Origin: a virus
Lineage: Duplodnaviria; Heunggongvirae; Uroviricota; Caudoviricetes
DNA: 64,000 bases
Direction: 5' to 3' (one strand)
Virus record (IMG/VR): IMGVR_UViG_2645727901_000008
Shown: positions 7,413 to 58,313 of the stretch, piece after piece
Layout: every line of letters starts with the position of its first letter
How positions within the stretch are numbered: position 1 is the first letter of the stretch
The notes under the pieces: model-generated
Database searches by the model: none
What the model saw: only the letters and a program-made list of their open reading frames with translations
What the model was told of the DNA's origin: nothing
Translations under genes and position numbers: made by a program

Positions 7413-8003
7413 CTACACAAAAACAGATGAGATATTGCTACGGTTGATCGATGTGTTACCGCTGCATTGCAGGGTTACCGTGTTATGAGTGAAATAGCCT
7501 TCCGGTGTGCGCGGGGCGTCCAGTTGGTAACTCACGCTTTTGATAACAACGTCGGTAAGGGCTATGTTCCTACCTATGTTTAACGTTACTGTCTCCGGGC
7601 GACGACCGAATGGCGCTACATTGTTCAGTTCCGGCGATTCCATCTTCAGCAATGCTGTAATGGCTGCGTTCACTTCAAGTTGCGCATTCACTGTCGCCAT
7701 GAAATCAATTACCAGATTAAATTCAGGCGGTTGCTGACCTTCCCAAACAAGCATTGAGTTGAAGAGGGTTTTTGTTGTTACGCCGGTTGCGGTCTGAAGC
7801 GTATCTGCAAGAGAGCCAGCCGCAGCGCTAATACCGCCAAGCAAACCTCCTACTGACTGGTTTTCAAATGGTGATTGCCACATTGATGACAGTTCTGCGG
7901 TAGATCCTTCACCGATATAACCGACGACCATATCCTCTGAAGAGAGGATATAAACCTTCATTAACGGACTTATTCCGTCAGGCATTATCGCGCCGCAAAT
8001 CAA
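7413..8003 (-). CDS. Hypothetical tail protein
   Basis: 196-aa ORF in the tail block, TTG start with GGGAG RBS. Confidence 0.4.
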   Translation of the reverse strand: MICGAIMPDGISPLMKVYILSSEDMVVGYIGEGSTAELSSMWQSPFENQSVGGLLGGISAAAGSLADTLQTATGVTTKTLFNSMLVWEGQQPPEFNLVIDFMATVNAQLEVNAAITALLKMESPELNNVAPFGRRPETVTLNIGRNIALTDVVIKSVSYQLDAPRTPEGYFTHNTVTLQCSGNTSINRSNISSVFV

Positions 8004-8052
8004 ACGCTATTTCTCCCAGGTAGAGGCCACCTTTGCAGGCGGCCTGTGTCAC

Positions 8053-8787
8053 TTACAAACCGCGTTTTTTGCGAATGCGCATTGATTTTTTGCGGTTAAT
8101 ATTCGCTACGGATGTATGTGCTTTGCGGCGTGCTTTTTTCAGCGCCTGTTTTTGCAATGACGTCATGCGGCGAGGACGCGGGCGTTTACGGATGATGGTA
8201 ACCTTGCCATCACGAACCACTTTTTTACGTACCGCTTCCAGCATTGCGCTATCACCACCAGCAACGGTGTAAATGGCAATAGCTGTTTCCATCATGTCGG
8301 TGTCGCTTTCGGAAAGAGCGTCATAAACACGTTCGGCAGCTGAGTCATCTTCATCGTCGATCATTTCGGTTACATCGTCCTGATCAGCGCCAAGCGCAAC
8401 AGCTGCATCAGCAAGAGCTGCGAGAGCATCGTTATAAGCATCGATTTGCTCATCGGTGAAATCGGTGTCTTCATCGATATCAGCCAGGCCAGCCATAGTG
8501 ATTGCTAATGCATCAAATGAGTCAGCCTCCGGATCACCATCTTCAACCCAACCAGCAAGCATGGAAGCTGCCAGGCTACGCATATCACCTTGTGCACGGG
8601 ATTCAACCGCTTCCATCATCGCGGTTTCAATGTCGTCTTTGGGCTTTGGTTGAGTGTCCTTTCCTTTCTGTCCTGCGCTTTCCAGCATGGCGTTATCATT
8701 ATTGTCCTGCGTGGATTTATCACCGCTTTCAAAGCAGCCAGAACCGAAAATCGCACGCATAAAAGGATCAGCAGTATAATTTTTCAT
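8053..8787 (-). CDS. Highly acidic protein with basic C-terminal tail
   Basis: Asp/Glu-rich over about 200 aa then KKARRK...RKKRGL; ATG at 8787 with GAGAGG RBS. Confidence 0.45.
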   Translation of the reverse strand: MKNYTADPFMRAIFGSGCFESGDKSTQDNNDNAMLESAGQKGKDTQPKPKDDIETAMMEAVESRAQGDMRSLAASMLAGWVEDGDPEADSFDALAITMAGLADIDEDTDFTDEQIDAYNDALAALADAAVALGADQDDVTEMIDDEDDSAAERVYDALSESDTDMMETAIAIYTVAGGDSAMLEAVRKKVVRDGKVTIIRKRPRPRRMTSLQKQALKKARRKAHTSVANINRKKSMRIRKKRGL

Positions 8788-8832
8788 ATTCAAACCTCTC
8801 TCCCCCGCATCATTTAGCGGGGGGGTTATAAA

Positions 8833-10491
8833 TCAGCGCATCAGAATTGGCTTACCGACGATTCGGCGAGCTGTACCGGTCGGACAAACAGACCAGGACA
8901 CTTCCCACAGATCGATGTCCTTTTGGACAACCTGAACAACATATGGATCTTCGCCCTGGGACTTGTCACGTGGAGTAACCAGCGCACCGGCTGCAACGTA
9001 ACGGTCAAGCAATTCAGTCATTGCTTTCATTAGCGTTTCTTTAGTAATGCCATCTGGTTCATGCTTAATTGTCTGAGCAACTTCATAGAAATTGCGGGCA
9101 ATAGCATTCATCAGAGACGAAACGTGCTGGAATCGCAGGTAGTTGTTTTTACTGAAAGTAGTTAAAGAGTCGTCGATGTAGACAGAACCATCAGCAGCAA
9201 CAGAAACTGGATTAATGCGCGCAAGAACGAACGCTTCACGATCAACTGCACCGATATTTGGAATTCGGGCAATGTTCTGTCGATCAATAATCGCGCGTGA
9301 TATACCTGCCGGTGCGTAATGCCAACCACCAACATCCGGTACCAGCGCCACTCCTTTTGCCTTCGCTACGAATGCGTCGCAGCTAATGCCATAGACGACA
9401 TTCATTCCAGTGAAAGTATCTCGGCAGGAGAGTGGGAAGTAGTAACGGCTTGGTTGATGTGAGCCGCCAAAACTATGGCTTTTCGCTTCTGAAATAGCGT
9501 TTTCAGGTGTCTGGTTGCCCTTCAGGTCATAGAACATGTCTACGCGAACATCTTCAGCCAGCTTTTTGATTGCGGCTAAGGCGGATGCGTCATAACAGCC
9601 AAGTGACAGCAATGCGGTGTAATTAACCTCTGAAGCTTCGAGAACCTTTAATGCTTCCAGATAGTCTGCAGCGTTAATTTCGGACAGATTTCCATCAGTA
9701 CCACCTTCAAAAGCTACATCCTCAAAAATGAGTTGAGCAGCGGATGCTTCTGCATTATCTGCCAGTACGGCACCAATGCGAGAGGACTGGCTTTCAAGCA
9801 GTGTCGGAATCCATGCTGGTTGGCCCATGTCGTTGGTGCCTTCTGGATTGAAAGACACTTGGTGACTTTCCAGCACCTCAATGGACCCATCGGTTTGTTT
9901 TTCTTTCAGCGTCAGCGTAAAGAGTTCGCTTTCTTCATCATCGCGAGTTAGTGATAACGTGCGATTTTGAGATGCATCACCATCTTTGATGAAGAATAAT
10001 GCCTTCTCTCCACTTTTAATCTGGGGCGTCTCTTTGGGTGTGAAGGTCACTGATTGAGTCGTTGCAGTTGAAGCAACACCAACGCTTAATGTGTCACCTG
10101 GATTTACTGTGGTTTCAGTAGGTTCAACGGAAAGTTCTTTGCTCGCCTTTGCCGCTTTTGCTTTGCCCACAACGGAAACAGAAATACCCGGCACCTTCAT
10201 GTCTTTAGCGCAAACTCGAACGACATATCCAGAGCCGCCTTTTACTGCACGCTCCACGTGGCGATATGGTTCAAATGCCGCGCCCTGGCGAGGGTGAATC
10301 GGTGAACCTAATACGCTTTGATAAGTCGTATCGTCAACTTTCAGTACCTTACCCGGTGCGCCACGACGCGATATTACAAGCCCAGCAAAGACGGATGCGC
10401 CACCGCTGGTATTGGTGAGGGTAGCGTCAGCATTTACTGACATTACAGCAACGCCAGCTGCCTGCCCTACCGAAAAACTAATCTTATTCAT
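8833..10491 (-). CDS. Putative contractile tail sheath protein
   Basis: 552 aa, position next to tube-like and head-like genes (P1 gene 22-like by size and synteny). Confidence 0.5.
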   Translation of the reverse strand: MNKISFSVGQAAGVAVMSVNADATLTNTSGGASVFAGLVISRRGAPGKVLKVDDTTYQSVLGSPIHPRQGAAFEPYRHVERAVKGGSGYVVRVCAKDMKVPGISVSVVGKAKAAKASKELSVEPTETTVNPGDTLSVGVASTATTQSVTFTPKETPQIKSGEKALFFIKDGDASQNRTLSLTRDDEESELFTLTLKEKQTDGSIEVLESHQVSFNPEGTNDMGQPAWIPTLLESQSSRIGAVLADNAEASAAQLIFEDVAFEGGTDGNLSEINAADYLEALKVLEASEVNYTALLSLGCYDASALAAIKKLAEDVRVDMFYDLKGNQTPENAISEAKSHSFGGSHQPSRYYFPLSCRDTFTGMNVVYGISCDAFVAKAKGVALVPDVGGWHYAPAGISRAIIDRQNIARIPNIGAVDREAFVLARINPVSVAADGSVYIDDSLTTFSKNNYLRFQHVSSLMNAIARNFYEVAQTIKHEPDGITKETLMKAMTELLDRYVAAGALVTPRDKSQGEDPYVVQVVQKDIDLWEVSWSVCPTGTARRIVGKPILMR

Positions 10492-22555: not shown

Positions 22556-23323
22556 TCACCCCATAGATATCGAGGTTTCGGTAATAATACGTTTTGCGTC
22601 CAACTCCCATGCTGTGATCACGTCTGCAATCACACTTATCGGCGCTTGTGTGGCATAAATACGCTCTTCTCCAATTGGTGCCGAAACATCCGTAAATCCG
22701 ACTTCTTTGGCATCCTGTATCGAGCAAATCAGCGGGACCGGGACACGAACAAGGTGAGTGGTTGCTTCAAATTGTGTACCTGTCATCAGGCGAAGCCGTG
22801 CGCCCAGCGAATTACACATCAGACTCATGGTCGCTTTATCAGTTGACATTAACGTAACGTCATACGTCAGAATGGCCTGGGTGTATTCCAGTTCTGCTAA
22901 AGGCATTCCGGTATCCGGTTCGCAAAAACTGGCTACTTTTTTGCGGTCAATCTGCTGATCATCGTTGATATAATTGATATCCATAGTGCGTGAGATATTG
23001 ACCAGGGGGAGAGCATCCCGGTTAATGTTCTGGTTTTCAGGTTTTCTCCCTTGCCCGGCATTTGCGCGACGAACTGCTTTAAGAAACTCGATCGCATTGT
23101 CGAAACGGGCCACATAGACACGCTCTGCTGGTGGACGATTCAGGAATGACGCAAAGCGTTTTTCTTCCGGCGCGGGGGCCACCAGTAAGATATCAGAAAA
23201 GATATTGCTGATTAGCGTAGCAAACGCGTTATCCACGTTTTCAAAGCCCGTGGTCTGGAATTTCCCTGTGCGTGAGGTTTGCCATTCACCTGTTCGCGCC
23301 AGGAGGGTTTTATTTGAAGTCAT
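22556..23323 (-). CDS. Putative baseplate/tail protein
   Basis: 255-aa ORF in the same operon. Confidence 0.4.
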   Translation of the reverse strand: MTSNKTLLARTGEWQTSRTGKFQTTGFENVDNAFATLISNIFSDILLVAPAPEEKRFASFLNRPPAERVYVARFDNAIEFLKAVRRANAGQGRKPENQNINRDALPLVNISRTMDINYINDDQQIDRKKVASFCEPDTGMPLAELEYTQAILTYDVTLMSTDKATMSLMCNSLGARLRLMTGTQFEATTHLVRVPVPLICSIQDAKEVGFTDVSAPIGEERIYATQAPISVIADVITAWELDAKRIITETSISMG

Positions 23324-24121
23324 TCGATCACTCCGTTTTGAGTCGTATCAAAATTCCTGGCAGGTATGCAGTAGTAAAGCGAACCAACATGCTGTGTGCC
23401 GTAGCTAAAAATACGGTGCACGTACCACCAGCGGCGGGCTACGCCGTTTACCATCTCTTCATTCCATTCAAGAATTGATCCGACGGGGACGTTATTTGCT
23501 GCAATACGCAGAATCAGAACATCATCGGTTAAGCCATCCTGCTCACCGTCTGCGTCAATCGCATGGAAAGAGTCACGCCCGTCCGGGTTATCCAGCACAT
23601 AAACGATTTCAGGTTCCTGGTAAGTCAGTTCGCGCTGGTTGTTATCCAGTTCAGTGAATGACTCTTCTCCTGTTTCGTCGCTGACTACCCCATATGTGCC
23701 AACATCTGGTCGATATAAGAGAGCCTGAAACGCGTCTGGGCTGGATTCAATAATCAGCATCCAGTCTGCGCGGATTTGGTCGTTAAAGGCTTTATGCCCG
23801 TTATAGCGTGCTTTTAGCTGTGGAGTTGGTTCTCTGCCAGCCAGGGAAGGTGGAAGTATGGCTATATCTGATTCGGCAGCATCCGGAGTAAGGCCAGCGT
23901 TGCTATCAGCAAAATTATCATGGCTATCAGCTTTGGCGGCGGGTTGCTCTTCCAGAATGCTGAATGAATCCGAACCGGTATTGCCATGTTCCGGCGCGCC
24001 TCCTGCATTCGCTTCAATCGGCGCTGGCGTTTCTCTCTGCGTGCTGTCATGTTCTGACTCATTACTTGCCAGGTTTGCATCGTCAGCAAACCATTCGTCA
24101 AAACGGCCCATAAGCATCCTC
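23320..24121 (-). CDS. Hypothetical acidic tail-associated protein
   Basis: ATG 24121 with GAGGA RBS (track start 24153 is further upstream). Confidence 0.4.
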
Positions 24122-24181
24122 AAAGGTCGATTTATCAGGTATCGAGGGTGCATTGTCTGGAGATTGTGATTTCAATTCATA

Positions 24182-24226
24182 TCCCAACATGGGACTAAAG
24201 TGCTTTACATTGTCCCATATTGGGAC
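24182..24226. promoter_or_regulatory. Two short palindromes upstream of higB (putative HigA operator)
   Basis: TCCCA-ACA-TGGGA and GTCCCA-TAT-TGGGAC inverted repeats. Confidence 0.45.
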
Positions 24227-24256
24227 TACTATACTTTCAGAGAGAAGGAATCTGTG

Positions 24257-24559
24257 ATGAAAATAATTTCGGTAAAAACACTAAGGGATTTCTGGGCGAA
24301 GAATCCCGATGCAGAACAGCCATTAAAGGCATGGGTTGATGAAGCAACAAAGGCTGACTGGAAAAATCCGGCTGAGATCAAAGAACAGTACCGGACAGCC
24401 AGCATCCTTAAAAACAGGCGCGTGGTGTTCAATATTAAGGGAAATGATTACAGGTTAATTGTCGCAATTGCTTATCAGCGAGGATGGATGTTCGTTAAGT
24501 TTATTGGAACACATAAGGAATACGATGCCATTGAAGCGGATACAATAGAACTGGAGTAA
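24257..24559 (+). CDS. higB: HigB-family mRNA interferase toxin
   Basis: 100-aa RelE/HigB-like sequence; toxin-first order with downstream HTH antitoxin. Confidence 0.75.
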   Translation: MKIISVKTLRDFWAKNPDAEQPLKAWVDEATKADWKNPAEIKEQYRTASILKNRRVVFNIKGNDYRLIVAIAYQRGWMFVKFIGTHKEYDAIEADTIELE

Positions 24560-24562
24560 ATC

Positions 24563-24922
24563 ATGAACATTAAACCTATCCGTACAGAACAAGATTATGA
24601 GGCCGCACTGCGTGCGGTCGAACCGATGTTCGATAACGAACCGGAAATGAACACACCGGAAGGCGATTTCTTTGAAGTAATGTGCCTGCTCATTGAAGAG
24701 TACGAGAAAAAGCATTACCCAATTGAGCCACCATCACCTATTGAAGCCATTAAATTCCGTATGGAACAGCAAGGGCTGACCGTGAAGGATCTGGAACCGG
24801 CGATTGGTAAGTCAAATCGAGTTTACGAAGTGCTTAATGGGACACGAAATTTGACGTTACCTATGATTCGTCGTTTACATGCCCAGTTTGGTATTCCACT
24901 GGAAAGTCTGGTTGGTGTTTAA
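24563..24922 (+). CDS. higA: HigA-family HTH antitoxin
   Basis: 119 aa with XRE-type HTH in C-terminal half, 3 nt after the higB stop. Confidence 0.75.
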   Translation: MNIKPIRTEQDYEAALRAVEPMFDNEPEMNTPEGDFFEVMCLLIEEYEKKHYPIEPPSPIEAIKFRMEQQGLTVKDLEPAIGKSNRVYEVLNGTRNLTLPMIRRLHAQFGIPLESLVGV

Positions 24923-24972
24923 GTTTGGCGGTCTGGAGGACCGCTTTTTATCTAAAATAAAAATTAGAAGGT

Positions 24973-25722
24973 TTGATAGCTTGTATGGGCAAAAATTCAT
25001 CAACAGAAAACACATCTACAATTGACTCAATCAAGGGCACAATGGATGAAGCCATAAAAGATAAATTATTTAATAAATTATTTGCATATGTGGTGGTTTC
25101 ATTTTTTGTCGTTAATTGGCAAGAAATACTAATTTTGTTTAAATCTAAATATGATATATACACAACACTGTCTATAGTATGGGTAGGGGATAAATATCAA
25201 ATCCCTTATTTTGGAACCTTCATTGTATCTCCGTTTTTAGCTCACTTTGTGATGCCGTTTATATATGGCACTATTGCGTCCATAGTGATGCCTTATATTA
25301 CTATGCGTATATCAAAACTCACTGGTAGAAATTATGCGCAAATAAGATACATTGACCATGAATTTGACTCAGAAGAGAAAGCAAGAGTAAAGGCGTTGCT
25401 GAGAAACCTAAAGAAAAAAGAGGAAGAGCTTTTAAAATTAGAGGAACAAATAGAAGGTCAACAAAAAATACTGAATACAATCGAAGAAAAGAAGAGAGAG
25501 ATTGAGAGTGCCAGAGTGGCTCTGTATCACGGTATAAAAGTAATTGTTGATATATATAAAGCAAAAGATAAAAGGATTTCCACCAAAGAAGATTTTGCCG
25601 ATTTATTAAAAGCAATTGAAGAAAGTGATTTTTATAAAGACACTGGGTTGTGGGGTATTAATAAATTAATAGATGACGTGGAGACAATATATGAGTCTCA
25701 ATCGACATCAAAGGACAAGTAA
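24973..25722 (+). CDS. AT-rich membrane protein with cytoplasmic coiled-coil
   Basis: Two or three predicted TM helices then Lys/Glu-rich coiled-coil; low GC; start may be ATG 24985. Confidence 0.5.
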   Translation: MIACMGKNSSTENTSTIDSIKGTMDEAIKDKLFNKLFAYVVVSFFVVNWQEILILFKSKYDIYTTLSIVWVGDKYQIPYFGTFIVSPFLAHFVMPFIYGTIASIVMPYITMRISKLTGRNYAQIRYIDHEFDSEEKARVKALLRNLKKKEEELLKLEEQIEGQQKILNTIEEKKREIESARVALYHGIKVIVDIYKAKDKRISTKEDFADLLKAIEESDFYKDTGLWGINKLIDDVETIYESQSTSKDK

Positions 25723-25755
25723 TATAAAAGGCGGGATAACCGCCTTTGTTGTAAA

Positions 25756-26952
25756 TTAAGAACCTTTCTTCACATACTCCATGAACATTTTTTCAGCTTG
25801 TGCAGGTGGTGTTCCTGCCATGACCAGCGCATCAATGAACGCCTGCTTCTTCAGTGCGAACTGATCGGCCAGGCGTTGCTGAAGCTCCTTGTTTTTCTGT
25901 TTCTCACGTTGCAACGCCGCTTCTTTTGCTGCCGCCCGTTTTTTCTGTGCGTCTGACAACTTTCTGGCCTTGGTCAGTTGGTCACGTAGCTTGTCAATCT
26001 TGCCGTTGTCCTTTGCCAGTTTTGTGCTTAAAGCGGCCTGGCGCTTCTGATAGAGCCTCCATTCGCGCTTGGCAGCGTCAACGTTTGTTTTACTGTTGCG
26101 ATTGCGATTAAACTCCCTCTCGTCTTCTTTTGAGAAGTGTTTGGTTGTACGGCGGCGATCGTCACCAAATGCAATTTGCGTTGCGGCCTTTTGTAACGCA
26201 CGAGCAATACTCATTTGCCAACTAGCGGACTGTAACCGCGTCATTGAGTGGATCACGTGTTTACAGGCGACGCCTTGTAGCTTAGGGTTACGAACTTTTG
26301 GATAGGCGTATTCTTTTGGCGGGGCCAGGGCAAAGTTACCCGCAGTAGCGATGTAACGATACCAGTATTGATGACGACCACAGTCACAATCGAAAGACAC
26401 CCGCCCGGCGCACAGTGATTTAGTGATTTTCAGAGCTGATTTATCGTCTTCTGCGATGTCATCGACCATCTGATCCCATTCTTCAAAGCGTATCCGGACG
26501 ATATGGTGCTGGTGGACGGATATATCCGATGCTTCTACGCGGATATGAATCACGTTGTGGCGAAGAGATACGGGTGTAGCTCTTTTGATACCAGATCCGT
26601 CATCCACGGCGTTATTTGCACGCTTAATATCGATTGCCTGGCTGGATGCCACCAGCTGGGCGTATGTGATGCCAGCCGTCTTGCTGTCATATTTTTCGCG
26701 TGTTTTACTCCGTAGCTTTTCGAAACCTTTCAGGTCGTCTCGCGTGAAGAACGTGCCGCCTTTTTTCTTCCCTAACTTGAGAATATCTTCGGCGGATTTG
26801 TTCCTCAGTCTACCTGGCGTCAGCGTCCGGTGAGCTTGTCGGCGCTTACGGGTTTGTTCTTTCCTGATAAGGTCGAATAAACGCGTGAAGTCCTTAGAGG
26901 ACAGGCCGTCAGTGATATAGCGCCCGTCCTGGTTTTTCAGGAAATCAGGCAT
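25756..26952 (-). CDS. SWIM-type zinc-finger protein with basic coiled-coil C-terminus
   Basis: CxCx(n)CxH pattern FDCDCGRH...ACKHVIH; 398 aa. Confidence 0.5.
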   Translation of the reverse strand: MPDFLKNQDGRYITDGLSSKDFTRLFDLIRKEQTRKRRQAHRTLTPGRLRNKSAEDILKLGKKKGGTFFTRDDLKGFEKLRSKTREKYDSKTAGITYAQLVASSQAIDIKRANNAVDDGSGIKRATPVSLRHNVIHIRVEASDISVHQHHIVRIRFEEWDQMVDDIAEDDKSALKITKSLCAGRVSFDCDCGRHQYWYRYIATAGNFALAPPKEYAYPKVRNPKLQGVACKHVIHSMTRLQSASWQMSIARALQKAATQIAFGDDRRRTTKHFSKEDEREFNRNRNSKTNVDAAKREWRLYQKRQAALSTKLAKDNGKIDKLRDQLTKARKLSDAQKKRAAAKEAALQREKQKNKELQQRLADQFALKKQAFIDALVMAGTPPAQAEKMFMEYVKKGS

Positions 26953-29649: not shown

Positions 29650-30267
29650 TCATTTTTGTCGGATCTTTTCCAGCATATTTAATTCATTATCACTTTCTGC
29701 TGCTGAGACGGTTGGCCTCACATTTCCGAAATATTTCCTGTGAGACTCATGACTTATGTATTCACCGACAGTTTCATTCTTGAATATACGAATTTGACAT
29801 ATGCGAGATCCAACAATAAGTTCTACAGGGCTATTCCCATGATTAAATAACTCTAAAGATATACAGCCTCTGTACCCTGGTTGTATCATGGTATTTAATG
29901 AAAGACCAAGCCTTGTATAGCTGCTTCTGGACAATACATCAGCGTAGCAATCTGGTGGCAAACAAACATATTCTAATGTTGTTGCCAGTACCACTTGATT
30001 CGGGTAAACAATGAATCTATCCCCAAGATCTCTCCTTGTTTCCTGGAAAAATGTTCTGATTGGTTGATGAGTATCATTGTTTTTTGATGGAATTAACTCT
30101 ATTGACGGCTTCCTTGTCATAATAGACACTAAAAAATCGTAACCAAGTCTAAGGTCTATGGTGAAGTTCCCAATTTGGTTTTTATTTAGAAGAGGTTCAA
30201 TGAACAACGACTCAGGTTCTTCTGATTCATAATATTGCAGCAATTCAGCTTTGCTTAGGAGATTCAT
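29650..30267 (-). CDS. Standalone dCTP deaminase-like enzyme (dUTPase fold)
   Basis: VLATTLEYVCLP, RSSYTRLGL and IQPGYRGCISLELFN align with E. coli Dcd motifs as recalled; ATG 30267 overlaps the upstream stop (ATGA), GGAG RBS. Confidence 0.7.
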   Translation of the reverse strand: MNLLSKAELLQYYESEEPESLFIEPLLNKNQIGNFTIDLRLGYDFLVSIMTRKPSIELIPSKNNDTHQPIRTFFQETRRDLGDRFIVYPNQVVLATTLEYVCLPPDCYADVLSRSSYTRLGLSLNTMIQPGYRGCISLELFNHGNSPVELIVGSRICQIRIFKNETVGEYISHESHRKYFGNVRPTVSAAESDNELNMLEKIRQK

Positions 30268-31337
30268 TGTGCACTCCATTTTTCAAGAATCATTACGTTT
30301 CGAATCGATTTTTCAACCAAATCATTTATAGTTTTTTCTATGGCTTCTTGTGACAACCCAGACCATATACCCGTAGGTTTTTCCCATTCAGAGCATAAGT
30401 ACTGCCAGCTGCTGTTAATAAAAGCATGCATTTCATTGTGGTCGCGAATAACAAAAGGACGCACATTATCAAAAGCTGATTTCACATCAAGCAAAGGTGT
30501 CGGCAATGTCAAACAAGGAGAAATAATCTGCCCACCATTATGTAAGGCTGATATCACAGCATTGAACATGCCAACAACTGGATTTTCCACTTTGTTCAAA
30601 AAGTCGCTTACAATTTTAACTCTATCTTCTGTGGATGGGTGAGTATAGCTTGCAGGATGAGAGCCAGCTAATTTGTATAAGAAATCTACCCCACTTTTTC
30701 CAATAAATTGGGCACTAAATAGATCTGCAAAATATTCTCTGCAATGATTTATCCAAATAACATCAGGTAGATTACTCCATTCTGGTCCAGGAAGTGTGCC
30801 TTTGTCCTTGGAACGATAGTTAAGACAGGCAAGCTCAGAAATACCTTTGCTAATATCAACGAAATGTCCCAATTCGTGATATAAAGGTATAGAGCATAAT
30901 GGTCGTCTTCTGTACATTTCAGGTAATGAAATCTGAATTAATTCGACATCGAATTTGACATTTAAAACTTCGTCAAATAAAGAATACAAATTCTTGTTTA
31001 CAGACTTAAAATAAAACCCATGCATATCTGGAGATAGGGCTGTGGTTATAAGTGTTTTTTCACTTATCCATTTTTTACAGGCATCATTTAAGCAATAGAC
31101 AATCTCGTAGGGAATTTTCTTTGTAGTACTGCCAGTGAAAAAATTAACTGCATCGGTGATAAAAAAAGTACAATCCGCAATTATTTTATCAGCAACATTC
31201 ACATGGTTTTCATAGAGCTTATCCACCGCTTCTTGTAGAACAGCAAGATATTCATGCATGTCTTTAGAAAAATAGGGAGATTCTGATATCTCCCTTAGCT
31301 TATTTCGAACTAATGTAAGTTGTGTAAATGCAAGCAT
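30264..31337 (-). CDS. HExxH metallopeptidase-like protein (ImmA/IrrE-like HELGH motif)
   Basis: PLYHELGHFVD motif in a 357-aa protein; start overlaps the upstream stop (TAATG). Confidence 0.55.
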   Translation of the reverse strand: MLAFTQLTLVRNKLREISESPYFSKDMHEYLAVLQEAVDKLYENHVNVADKIIADCTFFITDAVNFFTGSTTKKIPYEIVYCLNDACKKWISEKTLITTALSPDMHGFYFKSVNKNLYSLFDEVLNVKFDVELIQISLPEMYRRRPLCSIPLYHELGHFVDISKGISELACLNYRSKDKGTLPGPEWSNLPDVIWINHCREYFADLFSAQFIGKSGVDFLYKLAGSHPASYTHPSTEDRVKIVSDFLNKVENPVVGMFNAVISALHNGGQIISPCLTLPTPLLDVKSAFDNVRPFVIRDHNEMHAFINSSWQYLCSEWEKPTGIWSGLSQEAIEKTINDLVEKSIRNVMILEKWSAQ

Positions 31338-31642
31338 TAAATGTACTCTAATACATTCCGGGCCATTACGGGTTCTAACATATCTTCGCTAGTTACTTTG
31401 GTTAGCACCTGGGCGAGCGCCTTAGTGTGGCGTATCTCTACCGCGAGCGAGATGGACTCTCTGTGAGAAGGAATCTGTAATTGATCACCTTTATCTACAC
31501 TTAAGTTTGAGGCTTCTCTGATCACCTCATAAACCCGTAACTTTAACTGCTGTGACACTTCTTGTTGAGATGCTATAAGCTGAAGTACAGTCTTGATCAA
31601 CTTCAAAGAATCAGAAGCTTGCTGAGGAACCGCATAGAGCAT
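31337..31642 (-). CDS. Small protein, first gene of the three-gene cassette
   Basis: 101-aa ORF translationally coupled to the HExxH gene. Confidence 0.45.
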   Translation of the reverse strand: MLYAVPQQASDSLKLIKTVLQLIASQQEVSQQLKLRVYEVIREASNLSVDKGDQLQIPSHRESISLAVEIRHTKALAQVLTKVTSEDMLEPVMARNVLEYI

Positions 31643-33456: not shown

Positions 33457-33631
33457 ATTGGCAGCCTCCTTTGACTAAGTTAAGGAGCTACCGCGTGAGG
33501 TTCCAATCTCAATGGCGGTAGCACTGACTGGGTTGGAACTACCGGCGTCAAAGGGAACCGGCCTGCCTTTCGGCAGCCCAGCCAGCACTACCATTGATCT
33601 CTGAGCTAAACGCTACGTATGGCTGTGCGAT

Positions 33632-33720
33632 GGCATGACACAAAAAAAGACGCTTTCGGCGTCTGTGTCGCCTTTGACATTATCCGGGGTTCCAATCCCG
33701 GCACCCGTTTTTCTAAGGTG
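33632..33720 (-). ncRNA. Candidate c4-like antisense RNA
   Basis: Promoter-like region with operator-like GTAGAAATATA, then on the minus strand a hairpin (AGACGC-CGAAA-GCGTCT) plus U-run about 80 nt downstream; GGTTCCAATC-type elements recur in the icd leader. Confidence 0.35.
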
Positions 33721-33772
33721 CCGTAGAAATATACCCCACGATAATGCCAGGGCGCAACAGTCAGTATTTTAT

Positions 33773-56461: not shown

Positions 56462-56537
56462 TGGTGGCCCCTACCGGACTTGAACCGGTGACCGTGCGAT
56501 TATGAGTCGCCAGCTCTAACCACTGAGCTAAAGGGCC
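56462..56537 (-). tRNA. tRNA-Ile2-like, anticodon CAT (could be Met)
   Basis: Cloverleaf traced by hand; close to E. coli ileX as recalled; CCA encoded. Confidence 0.8.
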
Positions 56538-56547
56538 AATTAGTGTT

Positions 56548-56661
56548 TTATTTTCGACGCCTGAGATTCTTCGCGACTTGTTCTACGCCGTATACGATCA
56601 CAAGTAGAAACAGCAAAAACCATCCAGGGTTCTTATCGATATACGTCCAAAAATCCATCAT
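56548..56661 (-). CDS. Tiny membrane peptide (37 aa)
   Basis: Hydrophobic core; start overlaps the upstream stop. Confidence 0.3.
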   Translation of the reverse strand: MMDFWTYIDKNPGWFLLFLLVIVYGVEQVAKNLRRRK

Positions 56662-56822
56662 GAGTTCCTGAACGCACCTTCAATAATCGGCAATAGCAAT
56701 ACCACAGCTACTGAAACTAATGCCCCATCAGCCAACACCGACATCACTTTGCTGGTGAAATCCACCAGTACGGACAAAACGAGAAAGCCAATGGCGCCCG
56801 CAATACGCGCCTTGCCAATCAT
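56658..56822 (-). CDS. Small membrane protein (54 aa)
   Basis: ATG overlaps the TerB-like stop (TAATG); two hydrophobic segments. Confidence 0.35.
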   Translation of the reverse strand: MIGKARIAGAIGFLVLSVLVDFTSKVMSVLADGALVSVAVVLLLPIIEGAFRNS

Positions 56823-57256
56823 TACAGATAATCTTCCACACGAAGGCCAAGACGGCGACCAACCTCTTCCAGAACCTTATGCTCCGCAGGTTCGATTTCA
56901 CCATCTGCTTCAGCGATCGTGAGCATGTTCACGAAGACTTCTTCCGCTTCTTTGGGATCGTTTTTGATATCTTCAATTTCGCGGAGGATATTCATGCGAC
57001 CAACACGGAAACCAGCTTCCAGTTGCTCAGTAAAACGGGTGATTGTTGCGGTAATTTCGTTGCCAAAATGACTTAAGCGAGGATTAGAGCGGACAAGCTG
57101 ATCAAGTTTCGCTGTTTCTTCCTTTTCGATTTCACCATCTGCGGCAGACACCAGCAAACAGCCACCGATGATGGCCTCCATCAGATCGCGATTCTCAACC
57201 CTTTTCAGCTCTACTTTTGCTGAAGCGACTTTCTTACCGAAAAATTTACCGAACAT
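56822..57256 (-). CDS. TerB-like tellurite-resistance family protein (P1 TciA-like)
   Basis: TerB-like acidic repeats ADGEIEKEE and ADGEIEPAE; ATG 57256 with GAGGG RBS. Confidence 0.7.
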   Translation of the reverse strand: MFGKFFGKKVASAKVELKRVENRDLMEAIIGGCLLVSAADGEIEKEETAKLDQLVRSNPRLSHFGNEITATITRFTEQLEAGFRVGRMNILREIEDIKNDPKEAEEVFVNMLTIAEADGEIEPAEHKVLEEVGRRLGLRVEDYL

Positions 57257-57523
57257 TGGTTTTCCCTCAATAAACATGACGTATTTATTAGGTTGCGGTG
57301 CCTGGTGCCTCCAGGTGACGTTAACCAGTTAACAATTAACGCCGGGATTTTTGTCTTCACAATTAAGGAGGATTGTTTTAACTGTTCCGCGTGCGCTTAG
57401 CCGCATTCACCGCAATGGTAAGAGCACTTGGCTGGCTGGGCGGCGATGACGCCTGTACGCATTTGGTGAACCGGTTCTGCTTCCGGCATTCGCTTAATTA
57501 GCCAAATACTCTTAACGTTGCAC

Positions 57524-57610
57524 TGGCGGAGAGTAATGGAATCGAACCATCATCGCTTGCGCAATGGGACGGTTTTCAAGACCGCTTGAGCACCATGCTC
57601 CCTACTCTCC
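57524..57610 (-). tRNA. Long-arm tRNA-like gene, anticodon loop CUUGAAA (Ser-TGA-like), atypical D/variable arms
   Basis: 7-bp acceptor stem, TTCGATT T-loop, CCA encoded; anticodon stem-loop resembles tRNA-Ser(UGA) but other arms are non-canonical. Confidence 0.5.
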
Positions 57611-57746
57611 CGTTATTGTGGCGACCGGTGCTGATCTCCGGCTTGCGGTTATTTCAGACTCTCACGGGCGTTTAATTGCCCCGCCGAACAGCTCTTTTCC
57701 GCAATAGCTGCAATGTCTTTCGCGCATCAGCCTGCGCATTCACCAC

Positions 57747-57834
57747 AATGTTGAGAACACTGGTTGTCACGCTGCAACGCAACATTTATTCGTAGATTGG
57801 GATATGACCCCGTTACGCCAGTGTTCTCAACGTT
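57747..57834. repeat. 17-bp inverted repeat (16/17) separated by 54 bp
   Basis: AATGTTGAGAACACTGG ... CCAGTGTTCTCAACGTT. Confidence 0.5.
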
Positions 57835-57983
57835 GTAGTGCCGGTTACGGTTCCGGCCAGGCCTCTTCCTCAACGGGTTGTTCTCCATACGGACTACCGT
57901 TTATTGGTCGTTCCTGCGGTTTATGTTGTGAAGCCAGATGCTTATCTTCTGGTTGCTTCAAAGAGCTGCACTTCATCACAACG

Positions 57984-58056
57984 GTAAGGGTACTTCGTAG
58001 GGATTCGAACCCTCTGCCAAGCACGGCGATCTCCGACGTCGCAAAATACCCTTACC
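57984..58056 (-). pseudogene. Degenerate tRNA-like element
   Basis: GGTTCGAATCCC T-loop and 7-bp acceptor pairing, but no canonical anticodon arm and no CCA. Confidence 0.3.
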
Positions 58057-58064
58057 TGTTGCGT

Positions 58065-58140
58065 TGGTGCCGATTAACGGGATCGAACCGCTGACCATTC
58101 GCTTACAAAGCGACTGCTCTACCAACTGAGCTAAACCGGC
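58065..58140 (-). tRNA. tRNA-Thr (TGT)
   Basis: Canonical cloverleaf, anticodon loop TTTGTAA, CCA encoded. Confidence 0.85.
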
Positions 58141-58144
58141 AATT

Positions 58145-58231
58145 TGGTGGGGAGTGATGGAGTCGAACCACCCGAGTCGCAATGACAGTAGATTTACAGT
58201 CTACCCCGCTACCCCTACGGACTAACTCCCC
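58145..58231 (-). tRNA. tRNA-Tyr (GTA), long variable arm
   Basis: Anticodon stem-loop GTAGA-CTGTAAA-TCTAC as in E. coli tRNA-Tyr; CCA encoded. Confidence 0.75.
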
Positions 58232-58236
58232 TAAAG

Positions 58237-58313
58237 TGGCGATGGTGGGTGGATTCGAACCACCGACCGACAGCTTAGAAGGCTGCTGCTCTATCCTACT
58301 GAGCTACACCATC
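58237..58313 (-). tRNA. tRNA-Arg (TCT)
   Basis: Canonical cloverleaf, anticodon loop CTTCTAA, CCA encoded. Confidence 0.85.

What the first reader, a model, noticed from the sequence alone, without database searches (positions are those of the whole stretch)
24973..25722. AT-rich membrane plus coiled-coil gene immediately downstream of HigBA: candidate exclusion or abortive-infection factor
Strongly AT-rich relative to flanking DNA; the product has N-terminal TM helices and a long Lys/Glu-rich cytoplasmic coiled-coil, an architecture common in single-gene superinfection-exclusion and Abi proteins; it is a cargo-like insertion between the tail block and the SWIM gene.
Basis: inference. Interest (0 to 1): 0.6.

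Follow-up and report, generated by a model that had tools for sequence, protein, structure and literature searches.

The report
Hypervariable membrane cargo gene beside HigBA
A real, AT-rich accessory gene of a D6-type (P1-family) phage-plasmid encodes an uncharacterised two-helix membrane protein whose cytoplasmic tail differs enormously between otherwise near-identical phages, which fits a phage-defence or exclusion role, but that role is untested.

Summary
A 245-aa gene (true start ATG 24985, stop 25722) lies 62 nt downstream of a genuine higBA pair. Its GC content is 32%, against 47% for the window. The whole higBA-plus-ORF cassette sits antisense between the homologues of P1 genes 7 and 25, which are contiguous in P1 itself.

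The protein has two hydrophobic segments, a roughly 110-residue charged helix and a small helical C-terminal domain. It belongs to PHROG 8191 (function unknown). It has no significant Pfam, NCBIfam, PADLOC, PDB-sequence or fold match.

The new result is evolutionary. In D6-like phage-plasmids whose flanking genes are mostly 95-100% identical, this gene ranges from 36 to 100% identity. Its synonymous sites are saturated, so ancient alleles are being swapped in. The membrane domain is conserved and the cytoplasmic part is effectively unalignable.

The gene does not depend on HigBA. It stays intact beside a truncated higA, and one allele occurs with different toxins. Distant relatives have no toxin-antitoxin neighbour and sit next to recombinases, once next to AbiTii.

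Best reading: an autonomous defence protein with a conserved membrane effector and a variable cytoplasmic sensor. Function is inferred, not shown.

The parts
24182..24237 (+). higBA control region: two 25-nt direct repeats, each holding a TCCCAnnnTGGGA palindrome (likely HigA operators), overlapping a sigma-70-like promoter at 24204-24232
   Evidence: Repeat family D1; promoter-like site TTTACA-17-TACTAT. The operator role is an inference from how type II toxin-antitoxin operons are usually autoregulated.
24257..24559 (+). higB toxin gene (100 aa)
   Evidence: PF09907 HigB_toxin 4.9e-34; PADLOC PD-Lambda-2_A 1e-41; annotated as a HigB-family toxin in the 98.8%-identical plasmid NZ_CP028198.
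24563..24922 (+). higA antitoxin / HTH gene (119 aa)
   Evidence: HTH_3 at residues 63-115; matches only positions 1-119 of the 402-position PD-Lambda-2_B profile, so it lacks the peptidase half.
24927..24953 (+). Terminator-like hairpin GGCGGTCtggagGACCGC plus T-run, between higA and the ORF
   Evidence: A different hairpin sits at the same position in the unrelated Klebsiella- and Enterobacter-type higBA-ORF modules.
24985..25722 (+). The gene in question: 245 aa plus stop; PHROG 8191, function unknown
   Evidence: phrog_8191 1.6e-112; start codon conserved in homologues; no significant Pfam/NCBIfam/PADLOC hit.
25051..25356 (+). Conserved membrane domain, residues 23-124: amphipathic helix, TM1 (32-52, invariant N44 within an NW motif), short helix plus beta-hairpin loop (54-82), TM2 (about 83-110, invariant P91 and P103)
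   Evidence: Hydropathy; AF2; invariant columns across 36 distant relatives; 51-59% identity even between the most divergent alleles, dN/dS about 0.07-0.14; K+R counts favour N-in/C-in with the loop outside.
25357..25569 (+). Hypervariable charged helical stalk, residues 125-195 (coiled-coil-like)
   Evidence: pLDDT 87-98 as a continuous helix; 13-30% identity between allele classes; only generic coiled-coil matches; heptad test not significant.
25570..25719 (+). Variable C-terminal three-helix domain, residues 196-245
   Evidence: AF2 helices 201-213, 215-220 and 223-242; 14-44% identity between classes, yet 98% in the mosaic allele L013; sub-threshold DUF6947 hit, E 0.005-0.01.
25727..25747 (.). 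Bidirectional terminator hairpin AAAGGCGGgataaCCGCCTTT shared by the ORF and the convergent gene 25
   Evidence: In ORF-less relatives a single hybrid hairpin joins the left arm of the higA terminator to the right arm and tail of this one.
23320..24153 (-). Left flank: homologue of P1 gene 7 (tail)
   Evidence: phrog_1906 tail protein 2.6e-115; D6 annotation 'similar to P1 gene 7'.
25756..26952 (-). Right flank: homologue of P1 gene 25 (tail stability; has the CxC...CxH 'SWIM-like' motif)
   Evidence: phrog_1722 5.4e-197; 57% identical to P1 gp25; no Pfam family at E<=0.01.

Best explanation
The gene is an autonomous accessory ('moron') gene carried by mobile elements and expressed from the prophage-plasmid. 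Its product is most likely a single-polypeptide anti-phage sensor-effector of the abortive-infection type.

Shown by the analyses:
- It is cargo inserted antisense into the tail operon.
- It is bracketed by two terminator hairpins.
- It is a bitopic-hairpin inner-membrane protein, probably N-in/C-in.
- Its 2-TM domain is conserved (invariant Asn in TM1, two invariant Pro in TM2).
- Its cytoplasmic stalk and C-terminal domain exist as many ancient, recombinationally exchanged allele classes.

Inferred:
- The variable cytoplasmic part recognises a phage-encoded protein or a state of the infected cell.
- Recognition changes the oligomeric state of the stalk.
- The conserved membrane domain then permeabilises or depolarises the inner membrane, stopping the infection.
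- Transcription probably comes from read-through of the higA terminator, or from a weak AT-rich promoter, during lysogeny.
For: Cargo status:
- P1 has genes 25 and 7 contiguous.
- ORF GC is 0.32 against 0.47 for the window. Relatives are also AT-poor-context outliers, with GC 0.33-0.40 even in genomes of GC 0.55-0.62.
- It is present in about 100 of about 115 D6-like plasmids. It is cleanly absent in 10, all with an identical hybrid-hairpin junction.

Independence from HigBA:
- The gene is intact where higA119 is truncated or frameshifted.
- The same allele class occurs with HigB100/HigA119 and with RelE100/HigA112.
- A terminator lies between higA and the ORF in three module types.
- The Klebsiella grimontii relative and all distant relatives inspected have no toxin-antitoxin gene immediately upstream.

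Arms-race signature:
- Flanking genes are mostly 95-100% identical (79-100% across all D6-like loci) while the ORF is 36-100% identical.
- Against D6, dS is 0-0.29 in the flanks and above 2 in the ORF.
- Identity is 51-59% in the membrane domain and 13-30% in the stalk.
- Within allele classes dN/dS is mostly below 1, so each allele is functional.

Defence-like neighbourhoods:
- Erwinia amylovora: serine recombinase, AbiTii, family gene, resolvase.
- Leclercia: serine recombinase, family gene.
- Other loci: integrase- or resolvase-adjacent.
- K. grimontii: the gene is kept intact in a decayed P1-like remnant whose gene 25 is broken, in an island with Lamassu LmuA/LmuB and a TIR protein.

Structure and background:
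- Two TM segments, a long helix and a small domain.
- Conserved polar Asn and two Pro in the TM helices across 36 relatives.
- D6-like phage-plasmids carry almost no recognisable defence systems (bioRxiv 10.1101/2025.09.12.675607).
Against: - There is no experimental phenotype.
- The defence neighbourhoods are few and anecdotal. PADLOC found nothing in the Pectobacterium or L040 neighbours.
- No convincing promoter was found for the ORF.
- Between-class divergence is ancient and within-class evolution is mostly purifying. That fits balanced specificity alleles of other kinds, such as entry exclusion, as well as it fits defence.
- Topology and oligomerisation are predictions only.
- The gene is disrupted in most Klebsiella IncFIB(K) plasmids, so it is dispensable there.
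Confidence: 0.35

Rival explanations
1. Superinfection or entry exclusion. The membrane protein sits at the inner membrane and blocks DNA entry of related phage-plasmids (or of other phages) without killing the cell. The polymorphic region sets exclusion specificity, as in polymorphic plasmid/ICE entry-exclusion proteins or the T4 Imm, HK97 gp15 and P22 SieA class.
For: - Inner-membrane location and small size.
- Carried by a prophage-plasmid and oriented with the lysogenic higBA operon, opposite to the late genes.
- Many ancient, discrete allele classes kept in one conserved backbone, with purifying selection within classes. This is the pattern expected of specificity groups under frequency-dependent selection.
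- Present in about 87% of D6-like plasmids but not in P1 proper.
Against: - The variable part is predicted to be cytoplasmic, while the membrane and loop part that would face an incoming tail tip is the conserved part.
- Relatives occur on non-phage Klebsiella plasmids and in chromosomal islets of Pectobacterium, Citrobacter and Dryocola, where kin exclusion makes little sense.
- No equally polymorphic partner was identified in the flanking backbone.
- No homology to known Sie or Eex proteins.
Confidence: 0.2
2. Third component of a HigBA-based tripartite module. The ORF would be an accessory sensor, effector or membrane anchor that works with the upstream toxin-antitoxin, in the manner of PD-lambda-2 or toxin-antitoxin-chaperone systems.
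For: - The ORF lies 60-90 nt downstream of, and co-oriented with, a HigB/RelE-type toxin-antitoxin in three different module types. These are D6-like HigB100/HigA119, D6 RelE100/HigA112 plus an orphan HigA119, and Klebsiella/Enterobacter HigB103/HigA139. The last occurs on IncFIB(K) plasmids with no phage genes nearby.
- HigB and HigA here match PD-Lambda-2_A and the N-terminus of PD-Lambda-2_B, and PD-lambda-2 needs a third gene for defence.
Against: - A terminator hairpin separates higA from the ORF in all module types.
- The ORF is intact where higA119 is cut to 66 aa or frameshifted.
- One allele class pairs with different toxins.
- HigB and HigA are 99% and 97% identical between the Klebsiella and Enterobacter modules while the ORF is 50% identical, so there is no co-evolution.
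- higBA persists without the ORF in 10 plasmids.
- The K. grimontii relative and all more distant relatives inspected have no toxin-antitoxin gene immediately upstream.
- The ORF does not match PD-Lambda-2_C or any PADLOC model.
Confidence: 0.08
3. Some other accessory membrane function unrelated to phage. Examples are competition with other plasmids or mobile elements, envelope or stress modulation in the lysogen, or a selfish cassette with no host benefit.
For: - The family has no annotated relative, so nothing ties it to phage specifically.
- It travels as a small cassette. A 1.67-kb two-gene unit is shared by Citrobacter and Dryocola at 84% nucleotide identity. In two other loci the gene and a neighbouring resolvase lie near or within inverted repeats.
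- It is often disrupted in Klebsiella plasmids.
Against: - Purifying selection acts on the membrane domain and within allele classes.
- The gene is retained intact in a decayed prophage remnant.
- Its prevalence in D6-like plasmids is high.
- Extreme diversification confined to one region is hard to explain without an antagonistic partner.
Confidence: 0.3
4. A phage lytic-cycle protein: an i-spanin-like, holin/antiholin-like or morphogenetic factor belonging to the tail gene block.
For: - Embedded between tail genes.
- An N-terminal membrane anchor plus a long helix superficially resembles i-spanins.
- An insignificant Foldseek hit to a holin, E 5.5.
Against: - P1 has nothing at this position and makes functional virions.
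- The gene is antisense to the late operon, AT-rich and separately terminated.
- It is absent from 10 otherwise intact D6-like plasmids.
- It occurs on non-phage plasmids and in chromosomal islets.
- No o-spanin, holin or endolysin neighbour was seen.
- The predicted topology puts the helix in the cytoplasm.
Confidence: 0.03

Closest known systems
PHROG 8191 / phage D6 orf73 (ASR76396.1), function unknown
   Same: Full-length homology: phrog_8191 1.6e-112. D6 orf73 is 36.7% identical and sits in the same slot between higA and gene 25.
   Different: Nothing is known about the family. The window allele belongs to a different, deeply diverged allele class.
CapRel(SJ46)-type fused sensor-effector defence proteins of P1-like phage-plasmids (from my own knowledge of Zhang et al. 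2022; CapRel presence in P1-like phage-plasmids is noted in bioRxiv 10.1101/2025.09.12.675607)
   Same: A single polypeptide carried by P1-family phage-plasmids, with a conserved N-terminal 'effector' part and a hypervariable C-terminal part that could set specificity.
   Different: No sequence or fold similarity. The conserved part here is a 2-TM membrane domain, not a RelA/SpoT-like toxin. A sensor role for the C-terminus is inferred only.
RexAB of lambda and other membrane-acting abortive-infection effectors
   Same: Prophage-encoded and expressed in lysogeny. A proposed membrane effector coupled to a cytoplasmic sensing part.
   Different: RexB is a 4-TM protein with a separate RexA sensor. 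No homology was detected. Membrane depolarisation by this protein is untested.
Inner-membrane superinfection or entry-exclusion proteins (T4 Imm, HK97 gp15, P22 SieA; plasmid/ICE TraS/Eex)
   Same: Small inner-membrane proteins encoded by mobile elements. For TraS/Eex, discrete polymorphic specificity groups; for Eex, specificity in a cytoplasmic segment (my own knowledge).
   Different: No homology. The 110-residue helix and C-terminal domain have no counterpart in those proteins. Relatives occur outside phages and conjugative elements.
PD-lambda-2 (Vassallo et al. 2022, PMC9519451)
   Same: The upstream HigB matches PD-Lambda-2_A (1e-41) and HigA matches the N-terminal HigA-like part of PD-Lambda-2_B (7e-43). 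It is a three-gene layout with a third gene after the HigA-like gene.
   Different: HigA here lacks the C-terminal peptidase domain. The third gene is unrelated to the P4-antitoxin-like PD-lambda-2C. The ORF is genetically separable from higBA.
ZorA of Zorya (membrane domain plus long cytoplasmic coiled-coil tail; my own knowledge)
   Same: General design: a membrane-embedded module continuing into a long cytoplasmic helical tail in a defence context.
   Different: ZorA is a MotA-like multi-TM stator subunit that works with ZorB and other partners. There was no PADLOC Zor hit, and no partner genes are present here.

Membership tests
PHROG 8191 (unknown function) | Full-length match to the family profile | tested here: met
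   E 1.6e-112, residues 5-249 of the 249-aa mechanical ORF against profile positions 1-241 of 242.
Type II HigBA toxin-antitoxin (for the upstream pair, not the ORF) | HigB_toxin domain followed by an HTH antitoxin, with palindromic operators at the promoter | tested here: met
   PF09907 4.9e-34; HTH_3 3.8e-05; two TCCCAnnnTGGGA palindromes overlapping a promoter-like site. Toxicity and neutralisation were not tested.
PD-lambda-2 tripartite defence system | A = HigB-like toxin | tested here: met
   PD-Lambda-2_A 1e-41.
PD-lambda-2 tripartite defence system | B = HigA-like HTH fused to a C-terminal peptidase (402-position profile) | tested here: not met
   Only profile positions 1-119 are matched. 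The protein ends at 119 aa and has no peptidase.
PD-lambda-2 tripartite defence system | C = P4-antitoxin-related third component | tested here: not met
   The ORF has no PADLOC hit at E<=1.
Known Abi / defence protein families (PADLOC-DB 2.0, Pfam Abi families) | Significant profile match | tested here: not met
   0 PADLOC families for the window protein. Coiled-coil-only weak hits (LmuB, JetC) appear for one relative. No Pfam Abi family was hit.
Abortive infection (functional class) | Infected cells die or arrest, and the population is protected only at low multiplicity of infection | not testable with these tools
   Needs infection assays.
Superinfection exclusion (functional class) | Block of DNA entry with survival of the infected cell | not testable with these tools
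   Needs adsorption and DNA-entry assays.
i-spanin (Rz-like) | N-terminal TM domain with a periplasmic coiled coil, partnered with an o-spanin lipoprotein gene in a lysis cassette | tested here: not met
   Neighbours are higBA and tail genes, with no lysis genes or lipoprotein ORF. There are two hydrophobic segments, and charge counts place the helix in the cytoplasm.
2-TM pore-loop cation channels (NaK/KcsA/Kcv) | TM1, pore helix, selectivity filter (TxGYG-like), TM2, with a significant fold match | tested here: not met
   The top Foldseek hits are NaK channels but at E 3.3-9.4 and TM-score 0.13-0.26. No filter motif is conserved in the family.
Canonical coiled coil | Sustained heptad periodicity of hydrophobic a/d positions | tested here: inconclusive
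   High-confidence continuous helix 83-194 and generic coiled-coil hits. The single-register heptad test was not significant, with 701 of 5000 shuffles reaching it.

The most novel reading that the evidence does not exclude
The gene founds an unrecognised, rare family of single-polypeptide membrane immunity proteins. The family has 79 representatives among 1.84 billion protein clusters. Each member has a conserved 2-TM effector of novel fold fused to a hypervariable cytoplasmic stalk and sensor.

The alleles are maintained as ancient balanced polymorphisms and are shuffled by recombination through an otherwise clonal phage-plasmid backbone. This would give D6-like phage-plasmids, which otherwise carry almost no recognisable defence systems, a polymorphic specificity locus. 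That locus would act either in anti-phage defence or in self/non-self exclusion among phage-plasmids.
Probability: 0.3. Interest if true: 0.7.

Novelty: new variant of a known kind. Interest (0 to 1): 0.45.

Why it matters
D6-like phage-plasmids are common in clinical E. coli, Shigella and Salmonella, and they are reported to carry almost no recognisable defence systems. About 87% of them carry this gene, and it is by far the most polymorphic gene in the 12-kb neighbourhoods examined.

If it is a defence or exclusion determinant, it would do three things:
- It would add a new protein family, with a membrane domain of unknown fold, to the catalogue of defence systems.
- It would explain a balanced polymorphism in a conserved mobile element.
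- It would offer a simple one-gene model for how a variable cytoplasmic sensor controls a membrane effector.

The allele series is a ready-made set of natural domain swaps for mapping specificity. If instead it has no phage phenotype, it is still a clean example of a recombination-exchanged cassette that splits a phage late operon.

Tried and rejected
1. Family assignment failed. Pfam, NCBIfam and PADLOC scans of the window protein, three relatives and a 36-member alignment gave only sub-threshold or coiled-coil noise. The weak DUF6947 hit (E 0.005-0.01, below the cut-off) led nowhere, and no paper mentions it.

2. A PDB sequence-profile search gave only generic coiled coils.

4. The K+-channel idea, prompted by the insignificant NaK hits, was rejected because there is no conserved filter motif.

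5. Membership of PD-lambda-2 was rejected.

6. The idea that the ORF is HigBA's third component was rejected on the genetics.

7. The genome-contig scan with the close-family alignment found nothing, and the 36-member alignment was too divergent to scan with. A sub-alignment worked.

8. The promoter scan found no sigma-70 consensus site for the ORF. A conserved TAAAAT after the higA terminator has no credible -35 element (my reading).

9. The heptad periodicity test was not significant.

10. Within-class dN/dS gave no clear signal of ongoing positive selection.

11. Literature searches for the accessions, the PHROG number and the D6 locus tag found nothing relevant. The D6-like population paper mentions only higA-higB.
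Full report
**What the window is**

The region belongs to a D6-type member of the P1 family of phage-plasmids.
- The 1.65 kb around the finding is 98.8% identical to the 92-kb Salmonella plasmid pGMI14-002_2, and 118 plasmid records match at least part of it. Nearly all are non-mobilisable replicons; those inspected are about 75-97 kb.
- Phage D6 matches only the flanks.
- The flanking minus-strand genes are homologues of P1 genes 24, 7, 25 and 26.
- A C4 antisense RNA (the P1 immI region) lies 8 kb away.

**Checking the observation**

The ORF 24973-25722 exists.
- Its mechanical TTG start is almost certainly wrong. All homologues and the RefSeq annotation start at the ATG that corresponds to 24985, giving 245 aa.
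- GC is 0.324 (GC3 0.30), against 0.471 for the window. The sliding profile drops to 0.29-0.36 over the ORF only. Only one other island in the 64 kb is as AT-rich.
- The upstream pair is a bona fide higBA. HigB matches PF09907 at 4.9e-34 and HigA has a C-terminal HTH. Two palindromic repeats overlap a promoter-like site upstream.
- The ORF starts 62 nt after higA. A terminator-like hairpin lies in between, and a bidirectional terminator follows the ORF.

In P1 itself genes 26-25-7-24-6-5 are contiguous. The higBA-plus-ORF block is therefore an antisense cargo insertion that splits the late tail operon in the D6 lineage.

**The protein**

- Hydropathy shows two hydrophobic segments, at residues 32-52 and about 75-110.
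- With a 36-sequence alignment AlphaFold2 gives pLDDT 82. The predicted elements are an N-terminal amphipathic helix (9-28) and a kinked TM1 (31-53). A short helix and a beta-hairpin loop (58-80) follow. Then comes one continuous helix (83-194) that starts as TM2 and runs into a highly charged stalk, and finally a three-helix C-terminal domain (201-242).
- Lys+Arg counts across the family favour N-in/C-in with the loop outside.
- The stalk is 42% charged, but a single-register heptad test was not significant. 'Coiled coil' is therefore plausible rather than shown.

**No known relative**

The protein belongs to PHROG 8191, function unknown.
- There is no Pfam family above threshold, no NCBIfam and no PADLOC model.
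- There is no PDB sequence relative beyond coiled-coil noise.
- The family is very rare: 20 clusters among 5.8 billion proteins by word-seeded search. An exhaustive profile search of 1.84 billion cluster representatives found 79 at E<=0.001.
- All are 200-470 aa with the same architecture. N44, P91 and P103 are invariant, and S39 and S54 nearly so.

**The main new finding: a hypervariable allele in a conserved backbone**

- In about 25 D6-like loci the products of genes 24, 7, 25 and 26 are mostly 95-100% identical to the window's (79-100% overall). The ORF product ranges from 36 to 100%.
- Against D6, synonymous divergence is 0-0.29 in the flanks but above 2 (saturated) in the ORF. The alleles are ancient and have been exchanged by recombination. 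They were not produced by a recent burst of substitutions.
- Divergence is modular. The membrane domain keeps 51-59% identity with dN/dS about 0.07-0.14. The stalk drops to 13-30% and the C-terminal domain to 14-44%. Mosaic alleles exist, for example 85/70/98% in L013.
- Within an allele class dN/dS is mostly below 1, so each allele is constrained and presumably functional.
- The same pattern recurs independently. A Klebsiella IncFIB(K) plasmid and an Enterobacter P1-like phage-plasmid share HigB and HigA at 99% and 97% identity, but the downstream family gene at only 50%.

**Presence and absence**

- About 115 plasmids have a D6-type gene 25 at 90% identity or more, and about 100 carry a near full-length allele.
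- Ten plasmids lack the ORF, and all have a virtually identical junction.
- That junction is a single hairpin made of the left arm of the higA terminator and the right arm and tail of the ORF's terminator.
- This is best read as one deletion between the two hairpins that bracket the cassette. That reading is an inference.

**Relation to HigBA**

The ORF lies just downstream of a HigB/RelE-type toxin-antitoxin in three module types, which at first suggests a tripartite system. HigB and HigA also match PD-Lambda-2_A and the N-terminus of PD-Lambda-2_B. The evidence nevertheless points away from coupling:
- HigA lacks the peptidase half of PD-lambda-2B, and the ORF is unrelated to PD-lambda-2C.
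- A terminator separates higA from the ORF in every module type.
- In the commonest D6-lineage class, higA119 is truncated to 66 aa or frameshifted while the ORF stays intact.
- The same allele class is found with HigB100/HigA119 and with RelE100/HigA112.
- higBA persists without the ORF.
- The Klebsiella grimontii relative follows umuDC, not a toxin-antitoxin.
- None of the distant relatives inspected has a toxin-antitoxin gene immediately upstream.

I conclude that the ORF and higBA are co-located cargo, not one system.

**Context of relatives**

| Host or locus | Neighbourhood |
|---|---|
| K. grimontii | Gene intact in a decayed P1-like remnant whose gene 25 is broken; the island also holds Lamassu LmuA/LmuB and a TIR protein |
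| Erwinia amylovora (L045) | Serine recombinase, AbiTii, family gene, resolvase |
| Leclercia (L047) | Serine recombinase, family gene |
| Metagenomic locus L039 and two Citrobacter loci (L043, L046) | Next to a tyrosine integrase or a resolvase |
| Pectobacterium | Small variable islet near fis |

All relatives are AT-rich, with GC 0.33-0.40 even in genomes of GC 0.55-0.62. The defence associations are real but few.

**Interpretation**

The data show an autonomous, horizontally exchanged accessory membrane protein with a conserved 2-TM module and a hypervariable cytoplasmic module. The combination 'conserved effector plus variable sensor' is typical of single-protein defence systems. I therefore rank the readings as follows:
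- An abortive-infection-type sensor-effector that perturbs the inner membrane when its cytoplasmic part detects a phage cue: about 0.35.
- Superinfection or entry exclusion with polymorphic specificity groups: about 0.2. It is favoured by the discrete ancient alleles. It is disfavoured because the variable part is predicted to be cytoplasmic and because relatives occur outside phages.
- An unrelated accessory membrane role: about 0.3.
- A HigBA-linked third component: about 0.08.
- A lytic-cycle role: about 0.03.

Every functional step is inferred. Nothing beyond anatomy, distribution and evolution is shown.

**Novelty and score**

The family is catalogued only as an unknown-function PHROG. 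I found no paper mentioning it. The kind of thing, a prophage moron encoding a membrane protein suspected of defence or exclusion, is familiar.

What is unusual is the novel membrane domain, the extreme and ancient allelic polymorphism inside a near-clonal backbone, and its presence in a phage-plasmid lineage reported to have almost no recognisable defence systems. I rate it a new variant of a known kind, with interest 0.45. It is a good, cheap experimental target, not a demonstrated discovery.

Noticed in passing
window 29650-31642 (-): Second AT-rich island (GC 0.365-0.384) with three co-oriented ORFs of 101, 357 and 209 aa. The 209-aa product is dCTP-deaminase-like (PF22769 1.3e-30, plus dUTPase). 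The other two have no Pfam family, and none has a PADLOC hit. Possibly a nucleotide-depletion defence cargo.
   Followed up: partly
window 24182-24237: Two 25-nt direct repeats, each with a TCCCAnnnTGGGA palindrome, overlapping the promoter-like site upstream of higB. They are likely HigA operators.
   Followed up: partly
window 23320-26952 compared with P1 (L042): In P1, genes 26-25-7-24-6-5 form one contiguous late operon. In the D6 lineage the antisense higBA-ORF cassette and its bidirectional terminator split it, so genes 7-24-6-5 must have acquired their own late promoter in the 24154-24256 region. The promoter itself was not looked for.
   Followed up: no
window 33511-33721 (-) and 56462-58313 (-): C4 antisense RNA (77 bits) and isrK (63 bits), marking the P1-type immI region, and a cluster of five tRNA genes: Met, Ser, Thr, Tyr, Arg.
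   Followed up: no
L015 6832-7311 (+) (IMGVR_UViG_2563366977_000001): An extra 159-aa ORF with no Pfam or PADLOC hit lies between the family gene and gene 25 in one D6-like relative, so the slot accumulates further cargo.
   Followed up: partly
L045 8486-8518 / 9857-9889; L046 7864-7905 / 9480-9521: In Erwinia amylovora and Citrobacter the family gene lies next to a small resolvase/invertase, with imperfect inverted repeats of 33 nt (79% complementary) and 42 nt (71% complementary). In L046 the repeats bracket the gene plus the invertase. In L045 one arm lies inside the 3' part of the gene. This could be an invertible (phase- or C-terminus-switching) segment or a small mobile unit.
   Followed up: partly
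L043 and L044, about 7490-9155: A 1.67-kb two-gene cassette (a 129-aa Cys-rich ORF plus a 379-aa family member, GC 0.33) is shared at 84% nucleotide identity by Citrobacter and Dryocola chromosomes with unrelated flanks.
   Followed up: partly
L010 7001-8716 and 55 Klebsiella plasmid records: On most large Klebsiella plasmids (IncFIB in the two typed) only part of the family gene downstream of HigB103/HigA139 matches. In the one inspected (L010) it is split by an insertion of about 0.94 kb. An intact copy exists in NZ_CP069846.
   Followed up: partly
L005 1281-5321 (Klebsiella grimontii CP067380): The island carrying the chromosomal relative also holds a complete Lamassu pair (LmuA 6.5e-198; LmuB E reported as 0, 1013.7 bits), a TIR-domain protein and HicAB. 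It also has remnants of P1-like genes 25/26, with gene 25 broken.
   Followed up: partly
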